Of a stretch of DNA of 64,000 nucleotides, positions 19,136 through 54,115 are shown piece after piece. The stretch's first letter is position 1; the number at the start of each line of letters is the position of its first letter. The notes beneath the pieces were generated by a model that made no database searches, was not told where the DNA came from, and was given only the letters and a program-made list of their open reading frames with translations. The DNA comes from Candidatus Aminicenantales bacterium (GTDB lineage Bacteria > Acidobacteriota > Aminicenantia > Aminicenantales > UBA4085): contig JBEKTZ010000007.1 of the NCBI GenBank assembly GCA_049515535.1, positions 62,001-126,000 of the forward strand, written 5' to 3'. The position numbers and the translations under genes were made by a program.

Positions 19136-19247
19136 TTTATACGTTCGCGGCGCAAAACCCCAATTTTTAAATTGGGGCTAAAAGCGCCGCTCAGTATCAA
19201 CCCTGAGCATACCCCGGGCTTCAGCCTGGGGAGTCGAATGGGTTGAT
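19136..19247 (+). mobile_element. Cloverleaf non-autonomous element, copy A
   Basis: TTTAT-[102 bp]-TTGAT; homologous to the copies at 34895, 36992 and 54004. Confidence 0.8.
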
Positions 19248-23282: not shown

Positions 23283-23556
23283 GGAATCACCTCGGTTGAG
23301 ATTTGACGAAAAGGACGGATATTCCGGTTTTTTCTTGGGGACGATTTCTTTTCCTTCAATGTCCGGGCATCCCGAGATCGAACATGGGCAAACTATAATC
23401 CACTCCGTCGATTTGTGTCAATGAATGGGGCCGGCGGACCGGGGTGCCGTTTCGGGGACATGATTTCCTGTCCCCATGGGATCCTCTTTGCCGCCTCCTC
23501 CGGAAGTTGACAAGCGGGGGCCGTTCCCTCTAGGATAACATCGGCCGCGGCGGCCG

Positions 23557-34894: not shown

Positions 34895-35006
34895 TTGATA
34901 CGTTTGACGGCGCCAAACCCCGATTTTAAATCGGGGTTAAAAGCGCCGCTCAGTATTAACCCTGAGCATACCCCGGGCTTAAGCCCGGGGAGTCGAATGG
35001 GTTGAT
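34895..35006 (+). mobile_element. Cloverleaf element, copy B
   Basis: TTGAT-[102 bp]-TTGAT. Confidence 0.8.
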
Positions 35007-36976: not shown

Positions 36977-36994
36977 GGGCCGAGGCCCTTTTTT
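36977..36994 (+). terminator. Short intrinsic terminator
   Basis: GGGCC-GA-GGCCC followed by T6, after the SurA-like gene. Confidence 0.45.
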
Positions 36995-37102
36995 ATACGT
37001 TCGACGGCGCAAAACCCCGATTTTCAAATCGCGCTTTTGCGCCGCTCAGTATTAACCCTGAATATACCCCGGGCTTCAGTCCGGGGAGTCGAATGGGTTT
37101 AT
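36992..37102 (+). mobile_element. Cloverleaf element, copy C
   Basis: TTTAT-[101 bp]-TTTAT; the right pentamer contains the stop codon of the convergent gene. Confidence 0.8.
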
Positions 37103-53967: not shown

Positions 53968-54006
53968 ATCCCCCGACCCTCTTCGGAGGGCGGGGGATTT
54001 TTTTTT
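53968..54006 (+). terminator. Intrinsic terminator (right copy)
   Basis: Same hairpin as 46422, with a TTCG loop and T-run. Confidence 0.8.
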
Positions 54007-54115
54007 ATACATTCGACGGCGCAAACCCCCGATTTTTAAATCGGGGTAAAAGCGCCGCTCAGTATTAACCCTGAATATACCCCGGGCTTCTGCCCGGGGA
54101 GCCGAATGGGTTTAT
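54004..54115 (+). mobile_element. Cloverleaf element, copy D
   Basis: TTTAT-[102 bp]-TTTAT; the empty homologous site is at 46458-46462. Confidence 0.85.

What the first reader, a model, noticed from the sequence alone, without database searches (positions are those of the whole stretch)
19189..19247. The element's central loop is the reverse complement of its own predicted circle junction (built-in guide or kissing loop)
Seen: joining the right end (GGGTTGAT, 19240-19247) to the left start (AC, 19141-19142) gives GGGTTGATAC. The central arm reads GTATCAACCC (19194-19203), its exact reverse complement. In the circle, GTCGAATG/C(G/A)TTCGAC would close a loop GGTTGATA opposite the loop TATCAACC: 8/8 complementary in A, one G-T pair in B, one mismatch in C and D. 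Established: IS608/ISDra2 choose cleavage sites by base-pairing with guide sequences inside the element. Inference: a nucleic-acid-guided excision and targeting mechanism in a minimal element, potentially reprogrammable. This is my best candidate for an undescribed system in the window.
Basis: partly seen in the sequence, partly recalled or inferred. Interest (0 to 1): 0.85.

Follow-up and report, generated by a model that had tools for sequence, protein, structure and literature searches.

The report
Mini IS200-type transposon, self-complementary end
This is a 107-base, gene-less jumping element of the known single-strand "peel-and-paste" (IS200/IS605) kind, common in Aminicenantes bacteria, whose middle carries a conserved stretch that base-pairs with its own right end; that extra pairing did not turn up in the papers searched.

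Summary
The 107-nt repeat at 19141-19247 has 4 copies in the window and 22 in the genome. It occurs in 27 of 101 related genomes and in MAGs labelled as other phyla. Its central segment GTATCAACCC (19194-19203) is the exact reverse complement of its right end joined to its first two bases.

The pairing is not a relic. Across about 130 homologues, loop and 3' tail stay paired through compensatory changes.

It is not a new system, though. It is a gene-less IS200/IS605-type element (a PATE).
- Contigs from other metagenomes lack copies A and C precisely, leaving one pentamer.
- Left-flank pentamers covary with the canonical 5-nt guide beside the left hairpin, not with the loop.
- In one complete relative genome, 36 of 39 copies have the folding strand on the lagging-strand template.

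So target choice follows the known guide rule. The loop is a third, longer complement that tracks the element's own right end (10 of 11 informative haplotypes). In the excised circle it would span the junction.

Its role (clamp or mask of the right cleavage site or junction) and the Y1 enzyme that mobilises it remain untested. Verdict: new variant of a known kind, moderate interest.

The parts
19136..19140 (+). Target pentamer (TAM) TTTAT in the left flank of copy A; not part of the element.
   Evidence: Contigs of runs X3 and X6 join 19138 to 19246 with 2 letters of ambiguity, which equals loss of 19141-19247 and leaves GGCTTTAT|TCTTG. X4 shows the same with one T fewer.
19141..19247 (+). Copy A of the 107-nt gene-less IS200/IS605-type element (PATE). 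It lies between two genes on the minus strand.
19142..19147 (+). 5' strand of stem P1 (CGTTCG). It pairs with CGAATG at 19235-19240. The stem is 8 bp in most other copies.
   Evidence: helix 1, 93.7% of cells paired; cloverleaf is the minimum-energy fold of the family consensus.
19147..19153 (+). 5' strand of stem P2 (GCGGCGC), pairing with GCGCCGC at 19184-19190.
   Evidence: Folds; compensatory changes between the two families.
19153..19157 (+). Canonical left guide GL (CAAAA), directly 5' of the left hairpin. It matches the TTTAT target of this copy.
   Evidence: Guide-to-target covariation. Guide position as described for IS608 (PMC5934647, passages).
19158..19177 (+). Left subterminal hairpin (CCCCAATT / AATTGGGG).
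   Evidence: 3 pairs changed on both sides.
19189..19208 (+). Central hairpin P3: stem GCTCAG/CTGAGC, loop TATCAACC (19195-19202).
   Evidence: The stem itself shows no change on both sides and is weak in the commonest subtype of the second family.
19194..19203 (+). Anti-TEM segment GTATCAACCC. It complements the right end GGGTTGAT (8 bp), and GGGTTGAT+AC in the circle (10 bp).
19207..19211 (+). Canonical right guide position GR (GCATA), directly 5' of the right hairpin.
   Evidence: Its last base covaries with the last base of the right end (A with T, G with C). The fit at -3 is inconsistent.
19212..19231 (+). Right subterminal hairpin P4 (CCCCGGGC / GCCTGGGG).
   Evidence: 99.3% of cells paired, 2 pairs changed on both sides.
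19240..19247 (+). 3' tail GGGTTGAT. Its last five bases (19243-19247) are the element's own terminal pentamer (TEM).
34900..35006 (+). Copy B. Target TTGAT at 34895-34899, loop TATTAACC at 34954-34961, tail GGGTTGAT.
36997..37102 (+). Copy C. Target TTTAT at 36992-36996, loop at 37050-37057, tail GGGTTTAT. Absent from strains in two other runs.
   Evidence: Contigs of X2 and X4 join 36991 to 37098 with 5 letters of ambiguity, which equals loss of 36997-37102.
54009..54115 (+). Copy D. Target TTTAT at 54004-54008, loop at 54063-54070, tail GGGTTTAT.

Best explanation
The repeat is a non-autonomous IS200/IS605-type element (a PATE). I infer that a Y1 HUH transposase supplied in trans moves it as single-stranded DNA by 'peel and paste'.

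Shown here:
- It inserts directly 3' of a pentamer (TTGAT, TTTAT, TTCAT, TTGAC ...) without duplicating it.
- It carries two subterminal hairpins on one strand.
- The pentamer is read by the known rule: a 5-nt guide directly 5' of the left hairpin pairs with it.
- The folding strand sits on the lagging-strand template.
- The central loop is a third, longer complement. It pairs with the element's own 3' tail (GG + terminal pentamer, 7-8 bp).

Inferred:
- After excision the loop would pair across the right-end/left-end junction (10 bp in copy A).
- The element can adopt two folds of similar energy. One is a cloverleaf (P1+P3) with loop and tail free to kiss. The other pairs loop and tail as a long stem around the right hairpin.
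- This helix is a cis-acting clamp or switch on the single strand. It holds or masks the right cleavage site and the circle junction, whose sequence equals the element's own target.
- The helix competes with the short canonical right guide, so it would set when the end is offered to the transposase.

It does not select targets.
For: **Copy number and spread**
- 22 copies in the 3.45-Mb genome.
- Matches in 27 of 101 relatives, several at the 37-match scoring cap.
- Of the 80 titled rows of the public-genome scan, 49 are Aminicenantes. Others are labelled Thermodesulfobacteriota (8), 'delta proteobacterium' (7), Syntrophaceae (4), NC10 (1) and other groups. About 5 of the 116 loci are chance hits.

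**Precise presence/absence**
- Copies A and C are skipped exactly in contigs of other runs (A in 3 runs, C in 2).
- At A the empty site keeps the left TTTAT, while the element ends in TTGAT.

**Left guide rule**
- TTGAT/CCAAA 29, TTGAC/CTAAG 25, TTTAT/CAAAA 4, TTAAC/CTAAG 3, TTCAC/CGAAG 2, TTCAT/CGAAA 1.
- 82% of cells pair. Position -3 shows GU 29, GC 26, AU 5, CG 3, UA 1. No shuffle of 500 reaches the score.

**Orientation in complete genome G028**
- dnaA lies at 0.504 Mb.
- 19 of 20 left-end modules are '+' between 0.504 and 2.6 Mb, and 17 of 19 are '-' elsewhere, so 36 of 39 fit.
- The genome's 11 IS200 tnpA copies switch strand the same way, 11 of 11.
- This is the published hallmark of the family (PMC5027513, passages).

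**Loop-to-tail helix**
- 93.1% of cells pair.
- Compensatory variants: TATCGGCC/GGGCCGAT, TATTAGCC/GGGCTTAT, GGTCAATC/GGGATTGAC, TATGAACC/GGGTTCAT, GGTTAACC/GGGTTAAC.
- The loop follows the right end in 10 of 11 informative haplotypes.

**Other**
- Several different left-end modules share the same loop + right hairpin + tail module.
- Folds are (z about -5).
- G-T pairs are tolerated on the + strand only.
Against: - No cognate transposase was identified. A canonical IS200-type tnpA is found in only 4 of the 16 element-rich genomes, against 15 of the other 85.
- The one in the window's own genome is broken by a stop codon.
- The ends of the IS200 copies differ from those of this element.
- No copy lies beside 12 RAYT-like or 12 IS200 loci, apart from one weak match.
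- The TTTAT subtype keeps a T-T mismatch with the loop (7 haplotypes).
- In 4 of 11 informative haplotypes the left guide does not pair with the flank.
- The P3 stem has no covariation and is weak in the commonest subtype of the second family, so the cloverleaf or kissing geometry is uncertain.
- A 1-nt linker ahead of a 7-bp second helix suits an RNA pseudoknot better than B-form DNA (my inference).
- Genes co-directional with replication would also show an orientation bias.
- In the own genome the GC-skew test is weak (15 of 21).
- Circles and junctions were not observable.
Confidence: 0.7

Rival explanations
1. The central loop is the working guide. It selects both the cleavage sites and the new target by base pairing, so the element could be reprogrammed through the loop.
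For: The loop also complements the left flank plus the first base: 86.5% of cells pair, and the first base covaries with loop position 1 as A:T or C:G. Where the target is TTAAC, the loop GGTTAACC pairs with it perfectly.
Against: Where the target and the right end differ at -3, the loop pairs with the target in only 3 of 11 haplotypes, against 10 of 11 for the right end. TTCAT and TTCAC targets go with guides CGAAA and CGAAG while the loop stays unchanged. The bases upstream of the target pentamer are not conserved, so the loop's CC has no partner in targets. The two changes on both sides seen coincide with one family split.
Confidence: 0.07
2. The element is, or encodes, a small structured RNA: four stems plus a pseudoknot between loop and 3' tail. 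It would work like the guide-RNA scaffolds carried by some PATEs, for an RNA-guided protein acting in trans.
For: The fold is as good with RNA parameters (z -5.6). The pseudoknot geometry is classic for RNA (my inference). The ISDra2 TnpB RNA scaffold is 116 nt, has four stems and has a pseudoknot using the last bases before the transposon end (PMC10097598, passages). PATEs often carry such RNAs (PMC10055086, passages).
Against: TnpB (PF07282) was not found in 100 of 101 relatives (one weak hit) nor in 6 element-rich genomes, and PF01385 was not found in the own genome. No Rfam family comes near its threshold. Copy A lies antisense between two genes of one direction. The pairing partner in ISDra2 lies at the far 5' end of the scaffold, not in a central loop.
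Confidence: 0.08
3. The complementarity has no function. It is a leftover of an inverted duplication of the right end, or a by-product of selection for hairpins in general.
For: Part of the loop region is itself palindromic in the second family (GGTTAACC). The TTTAT subtype tolerates a mismatch.
Against: Changes on both sides occur at 4 of 7 pairs in independent lineages, and no shuffle of 500 reaches the score. Sliding the partner by one column drops pairing from 93% to 41-58%. The module is kept across different left ends and across MAGs of several phyla.
Confidence: 0.05
4. It is a REP/REPIN-like repeat moved by the genome's RAYT-like Y1 protein (341 aa, contig C13) rather than by an IS200-type TnpA.
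For: A RAYT-like gene is present: NCBIfam REP-associated tyrosine transposase scores 74.1 bits against a cut-off of 80, and Pfam Y1_Tnp scores 47 bits. Homologues occur in 79 of 101 relatives, including element-rich genomes that lack a canonical tnpA.
Against: No copy lies within the fetched flanks of 12 RAYT-like loci. The element shows target-pentamer and guide logic and insertion 3' of the pentamer, which are IS200/IS605 traits. RAYT homologues are nearly ubiquitous here, so co-occurrence says nothing.
Confidence: 0.1

Closest known systems
IS200/IS605 family insertion sequences (IS608, ISDra2) and their gene-less derivatives, PATEs
   Same: - No terminal inverted repeats, and subterminal hairpins on one strand.
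- Insertion 3' of a tetra- or pentanucleotide without duplication.
- A guide directly 5' of the hairpin pairs with the cleavage site.
- The active strand lies on the lagging-strand template.
- TTGAT is also the ISDra2 target.

Sources (passages only): PMC5934647, PMC10055086, PMC3119063, PMC5027513.
   Different: - There is an extra central segment of 8-10 nt fully complementary to the right end or junction.
- The spacer between right hairpin and terminal pentamer is long (11 nt).
- A stem (P1) joins the two ends into a four-way junction.
- A more compact related family in relatives (loci L044-L047, L050, L052, L054) shows the ordinary arrangement, from my reading of the sequences printed.
Engineered IS608 with extended transposon-to-target pairing (Morero et al. 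2018, PMC5934647; passages read)
   Same: An 8-nt stretch downstream of the left hairpin forms an extra helix with DNA next to a cleavage site. Wild-type IS608 also has a second small hairpin at that place.
   Different: There the extension was designed to pair with the target, upstream of the tetranucleotide. Here the natural stretch pairs with the element's own right end, including the pentamer itself, and does not track targets.
REP/REPIN repeats and RAYT (TnpA-REP) transposases
   Same: High-copy intergenic hairpin repeats in a genome that holds a single RAYT-like Y1 gene.
   Different: This is a 107-nt multi-hairpin element with target-pentamer and guide logic. It does not flank the RAYT-like gene. 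The REP features cited are recalled or taken from search listings only.
TnpB guide-RNA (omega RNA) scaffold of ISDra2
   Same: About 110 nt, four stems, and a pseudoknot that uses the last bases of the transposon's right end, with TTGAT as the adjacent motif (PMC10097598, passages).
   Different: No TnpB was found in these genomes. The partner of the tail is a central loop, not the 5' end of the scaffold. No RNA evidence was obtained.
Bridge RNA / seekRNA of IS110 and IS1111 elements (recalled, not tested in any call)
   Same: Loops of a folded nucleic acid complement the element's joined ends.
   Different: Those are RNAs made by elements that encode a DEDD recombinase. Here there is no such gene in the element, and the traits tested are those of IS200/IS605.

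Membership tests
IS200/IS605 family / PATE | No terminal inverted repeats; subterminal hairpins at both ends on the same strand | tested here: met
   Hairpins at 19158-19177 and 19212-19231 both start CCCC and end GGGG on the + strand. The ends ACGTTCG... and ...GGGTTGAT are not inverted repeats.
IS200/IS605 family / PATE | Insertion directly 3' of a specific tetra- or pentanucleotide, without target duplication | tested here: met
   Empty alleles of copies A and C occur in contigs of other runs. At A the empty site keeps TTTAT while the element ends in TTGAT. At C both pentamers are TTTAT, so a 5-bp duplication cannot be excluded from that site alone.
IS200/IS605 family / PATE | A guide directly 5' of the left hairpin foot pairs with the flanking cleavage site | tested here: met
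   Covariation: 82% of cells pair, five pair types occur at position -3, and 0 of 500 shuffles reach the score.
IS200/IS605 family / PATE | A guide directly 5' of the right hairpin foot pairs with the terminal cleavage site | tested here: inconclusive
   The guide's last base covaries with position -1 (A:T or G:C). Position -3 fits in some subtypes (GCATA/TTGAT, ACAAG/TTGAC) and not in others (ATATA/TTTAT, ACAAG/TTCAC).
IS200/IS605 family / PATE | Active strand on the lagging-strand template | tested here: met
   In G028, 36 of 39 left-end modules and 16 of 20 further copies fit replichores set by dnaA at 0.504 Mb. In the own draft genome the test is weak, 15 of 21 by GC skew.
IS200/IS605 family / PATE | Mobilised by a Y1 HUH transposase (TnpA) | tested here: inconclusive
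   Y1 genes exist: a broken IS200 tnpA and a RAYT-like gene in the own genome, and 11 intact tnpA copies in G028. There is no shared end sequence, no linkage and no co-occurrence signal.
IS200/IS605 family / PATE | Single-stranded circle intermediate with joined ends | not testable with these tools
   Only assembled contigs of DNA runs were available.
IS200/IS605 family / PATE | PATE: too short to encode a transposase | tested here: met
   The element is 106-107 nt. No left-end/right-end pair with cargo was found in the own genome.
REP/REPIN with RAYT | Repeats flank the RAYT gene and occur as short palindromes or inverted doublets | tested here: not met
   No match within the fetched flanks of 12 RAYT-like loci. 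The element is a single 107-nt unit with four stems.
TnpB guide-RNA scaffold carried by a PATE | A TnpB-type nuclease in the genome to use it | tested here: not met
   PF07282 gave 0 hits in the own genome and in 5 element-rich genomes, and 1 weak hit in 101 relatives. PF01385 gave 0 hits in the own genome. The genomes are 76-97% complete, so the correct wording is 'not found'.
Any Rfam RNA family | Match at the family's gathering score | tested here: not met
   0 matches in the window. The best sub-threshold hit scores 18.2 bits against a cut-off of 49.5. No tRNA was found.

The most novel reading that the evidence does not exclude
The loop is an essential built-in DNA 'junction guide'. After excision, the single-stranded circle closes a 10-bp duplex across its own joined ends. 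This duplex, rather than the short canonical right guide, would be what the mobilising enzyme recognises. That enzyme could be the RAYT-like Y1 protein with its DnaA-like DNA-binding tail. Such a mechanism would be a second, longer and rewritable layer of nucleic-acid guidance in the smallest known transposons. It would also be a natural counterpart of the engineered extended pairing in IS608.
Probability: 0.15. Interest if true: 0.75.

Novelty: new variant of a known kind. Interest (0 to 1): 0.45.

Why it matters
IS200/IS605 elements are the simplest transposons known. They are the textbook case of DNA-guided site recognition, and they are the cradle of the TnpB and IscB nucleases.

This widespread gene-less family has been recently mobile. 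It keeps, through compensatory evolution, a third and much longer complement of its own cleavage site and circle junction. [quoted passage not shown]

The data also give a clean natural illustration of the guide rule. Five target variants each have a matching guide, including G-T wobble use of TTGAC and TTAAC by a single guide.

Practically, the family explains many intergenic repeats in Aminicenantes and other sediment and peat MAGs. The repeats break assemblies and differ between strains.

Tried and rejected
**RNA evidence**
- No RNA holder was listed among 20 runs, so expression could not be examined.

**Laid contigs**
- No contig joined across copy B. Contigs simply end there.

**RNA family and tRNA searches**
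- Rfam at gathering and at permissive thresholds, and a tRNA scan, gave nothing useful.

**Search for the mobilising enzyme**
- The IS200-type tnpA copies have different ends from this element.
- Presence of a canonical tnpA does not track presence of the element: 4 of 16 element-rich genomes against 15 of 85 others.
- RAYT-like homologues are too common to be informative, in 79 of 101 genomes.
- The covariance model found no copy beside 12 RAYT-like and 12 IS200 loci, apart from one 28-bit match near an IS200 copy.
- nhmmer with separate left and right halves found no cargo-bearing or autonomous version in the own genome. It found only one extra, 3'-truncated copy at contig C10:34963-35059.

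**Orientation**
- GC skew around the own genome's 21 copies gave only 15 of 21 with the expected sign.
- The P3 pattern used in G028 is partly palindromic and hit both strands at two places. One of these copies was left out of the orientation count.

**Readings considered and rejected**
- A 5-bp target duplication. Left and right pentamers differ in many copies, and the left one follows the guide.
- A tRNA-like gene.
- A TnpB guide RNA.

**Not used**
- Structure prediction and complex prediction were not used, because no protein partner could be named.

Full report
**1. The observation**

The sequence is as described. The element runs from AC (19141-19142) to GGGTTGAT (19240-19247). GTATCAACCC at 19194-19203 is the exact reverse complement of GGGTTGAT joined to AC.

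The window holds four copies, all on the + strand:
- A: 19141-19247
- B: 34900-35006
- C: 36997-37102
- D: 54009-54115

The closing stem CGTTCGAC/GTCGAATG is 8 bp in B, C and D but only 6 bp in A, which lacks one base.

A 10-nt complementarity spanning the junction arose in 17 of 20000 dinucleotide-preserving shuffles of copy A.

**2. A repeat family**

blastn and nhmmer find 22 copies in the 3.45-Mb genome:
- 18 of the window's type, ending in TTGAT or TTTAT;
- 3 of a diverged second type, starting CC, with loop GGTTAACC and end GGTTGAC;
- 1 copy of the second type truncated at its 3' end.

Of the 80 titled rows, 49 are Candidatus Aminicenantes. The rest are MAGs labelled Thermodesulfobacteriota (8), 'delta proteobacterium' (7), 'Eubacteriales' (5), Syntrophaceae (4), NC10 (1), Acidobacteria (1), Planctomycetales (1) and four chance hits. 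About five of the 116 loci are chance matches by inspection. MAG labels can be wrong. However, several contigs of one Thermodesulfobacteriota MAG carry copies.

**3. Anatomy**

The single strand folds well (DNA -30.3 kcal/mol, z -5.0; RNA z -5.6). The parts are:
- stem P1, which joins the two ends;
- stem P2, which encloses the left hairpin;
- a central hairpin P3;
- the right hairpin P4;
- an 8-nt 3' tail.

Between the two families, P2, the left hairpin and P4 keep pairing through changes on both sides. G-T pairs occur that would be A-C on the other strand, so the + strand is the one that folds.

P3's stem shows no such covariation. It is weak in the commonest subtype of the second family.

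Minimum-energy folds fall into two classes of similar energy:
- a cloverleaf (P1+P3), which leaves loop and tail free;
- a two-domain fold in which the 'loop' segment pairs directly with the tail as a stem around P4. This class includes copy A, the major second-family subtype, and loci L048, L102, L122 and L142.

Folded as a circle, this helix extends across the junction onto the first two bases.

**4. It is a mobile element of the IS200/IS605 kind**

(a) *Empty sites.* Contigs from other metagenome runs skip exactly 19141-19247 (runs X3 and X6, with a 2-letter ambiguity; X4 with one T fewer). They also skip exactly 36997-37102 (X2 and X4, with a 5-letter ambiguity). At A the empty site reads GGCTTTAT|TCTTG. 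The left pentamer TTTAT stays, and the element brings its own TTGAT. So this is insertion 3' of a pentamer without duplication.

(b) *The guide rule.* The left-flank pentamer varies between copies and subfamilies. It follows the 5 nt directly 5' of the left hairpin:

| Target | Guide | Count |
|---|---|---|
| TTGAT | CCAAA | 29 |
| TTGAC | CTAAG | 25 |
| TTTAT | CAAAA | 4 |
| TTAAC | CTAAG | 3 |
| TTCAC | CGAAG | 2 |
| TTGAC | CCAAG | 2 |
| TTCAT | CGAAA | 1 |

On 96 public homologues, 82% of these cells pair. Position -3 shows GU 29, GC 26, AU 5, CG 3 and UA 1, and no shuffle of 500 reaches the score. This is the guide/cleavage-site rule established for IS608 and shown by covariation for Geobacillus elements (PMC5934647, passages; PMC10055086, passages).

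(c) *Orientation.* In the complete relative genome G028, dnaA lies at 0.504 Mb. Of 39 left-end modules, 19 of 20 between 0.504 and 2.6 Mb are on the + strand and 17 of 19 elsewhere are on the - strand.
- By my hand calculation, 36 of 39 has a binomial tail of about 2e-8.
- The terminus was read from the switch itself, near the antipode of dnaA. With the exact antipode the count is 34 of 39.
- Twenty further copies found only by their P3 pattern fit in 16 cases.
- The genome's 11 IS200 tnpA copies switch strand in the same way.

The folding strand is thus on the lagging-strand template, the family's hallmark (PMC5027513, passages).

(d) *Size.* The element is too short to code, has no terminal inverted repeats and has near-terminal palindromes. 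That is the definition of a PATE (PMC3119063, passages).

**5. What the loop does and does not do**

*With the terminal pentamer and the G's before it: yes.* 93.1% of cells pair, 4 of 7 pairs change on both sides, and sliding the partner by one column drops pairing to 41-58%. Independent variants are listed below.

| Loop | Tail |
|---|---|
| TATCGGCC | GGGCCGAT |
| TATTAGCC | GGGCTTAT |
| GGTCAATC | GGGATTGAC |
| GGTTAATC | GGATTTCAC |
| TATGAACC | GGGTTCAT |
| GGTTAACC | GGGTTAAC |

*With the target: no.* In 11 haplotypes whose left and right pentamers differ at -3, the loop pairs with the right end in 10 and with the target in 3. The left guide pairs with the target in 7. Bases upstream of the target pentamer are not conserved.

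Several unrelated left-end modules share the same loop + right hairpin + tail module. This marks the loop as part of the right-end apparatus.

The element's first base does covary with the loop's first base (A:T against C:G). That fits a helix across the circle junction or across the left cleavage site. However, the two states coincide with one family split.

**6. Mechanism proposed**

*Shown:* PATE anatomy, precise presence/absence, the left guide rule, the strand bias, and a conserved loop-tail helix.

*Inferred:* the helix works on the single strand. The terminal pentamer can pair either with the short canonical right guide (whose first two bases lie in the P3 stem) or with the far more stable 7-10-bp loop complement. 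So the loop most likely acts as a clamp or switch that holds or masks the right cleavage site. After excision it would do the same for the junction, whose sequence equals the element's own target.

Whether it promotes or restrains cleavage cannot be decided here.

**7. Rivals**

- *RNA or guide-RNA reading.* It has a real resemblance to the ISDra2 TnpB RNA: a 116-nt scaffold, four stems, and a pseudoknot using the last bases of the right end (PMC10097598, passages). But TnpB was not found in 100 of 101 relatives nor in the element-rich genomes, and Rfam gives nothing.
- *Relic reading.* It is contradicted by the compensatory changes.
- *REP/RAYT reading.* It lacks linkage and does not explain the guide rule.

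**8. The enzyme is unresolved**

- The own genome has one IS200-type tnpA, broken by a stop codon and sitting inside an IS1-like gene. It also has a 341-aa RAYT-like Y1 gene.
- G028 has 11 intact tnpA copies, but with different ends.
- A canonical tnpA occurs in 4 of 16 element-rich genomes and in 15 of the other 85.
- These are draft MAGs, in which multi-copy IS are often unassembled. Absence is therefore weak evidence.

**9. Novelty**

Six of the library searches found no paper on this family. None described a PATE with a built-in complement of its right end or junction, and none of the listed papers holds 'Aminicenantes' together with the transposon terms. The library is open-access only. 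Supplements of the papers cited were not read.

Earlier notes of this scan on the same genome describe hairpin repeats, one ending in TTGAC and one filed as a PATE. The present work adds the guide rule, the empty sites, the strand bias and the loop-tail covariation.

Noticed in passing
own genome contig C9:67988-68137 (minus strand); locus L035:1501-1650; window 37081-37083 (inserted letters in run X4): A subfamily carries a 37-nt hairpin-forming insert in the loop of the right hairpin P4. The insert occurs in both orientations in different genomes. Variants of 145-150 nt are seen in at least six genomes.
   Followed up: partly
window 23449-23481: A small GC-rich hairpin (GGGGACA ... TGTCCCC) lies upstream of the 1341-aa gene. 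Contigs of three other runs diverge exactly at its two edges, and depth rises there. It looks like another small strain-variable repeat.
   Followed up: no
loci L063, L065, L069, L070, L073 (G028), flanks of the IS200 copies: Several of the 11 IS200 copies sit inside a long palindromic repeat (GGGGTCAAACCTACACTTTGT ... ACAAAGTGTAGGTTTGACCCC). The same repeat abuts copies of the element studied here in L128 and L149. So one repeat family serves as a landing site for others.
   Followed up: no
L024:942-2370 (own genome contig C9): The only IS200-type tnpA of the window's genome has an internal TAA stop. It is inserted into an IS1-like transposase gene, splitting it into two ORFs.
   Followed up: partly
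window 37099-37101 and 54112-54114: The stop codons (TAA) of the convergent minus-strand genes at copies C and D are formed by the element's terminal TTTAT. The empty allele of C gives the same stop from the target TTTAT, so the insertion is silent for the gene.
   Followed up: yes
loci L044-L047, L050, L052, L054 (relatives): A more distant, more compact PATE family of 120-130 nt has the same hairpin style. In it, the guide beside the right hairpin and the terminal pentamer form a simple extension of the hairpin stem (for example ATGAAA / TTTCAT). It has no separate central complement.
   Followed up: partly
loci L091, L097-L099, L101, L110, L117, L120, L121, L124, L164-L166 and others: Mosaic elements occur. 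The same loop + right hairpin + tail module is joined to at least three unrelated left-end modules.
   Followed up: partly
loci L094, L123, L167, L168 (contigs of one MAG): Copies with one and the same left guide CTAAG sit after either TTGAC or TTAAC. This is natural evidence that the guide's T accepts G (wobble) or A.
   Followed up: partly
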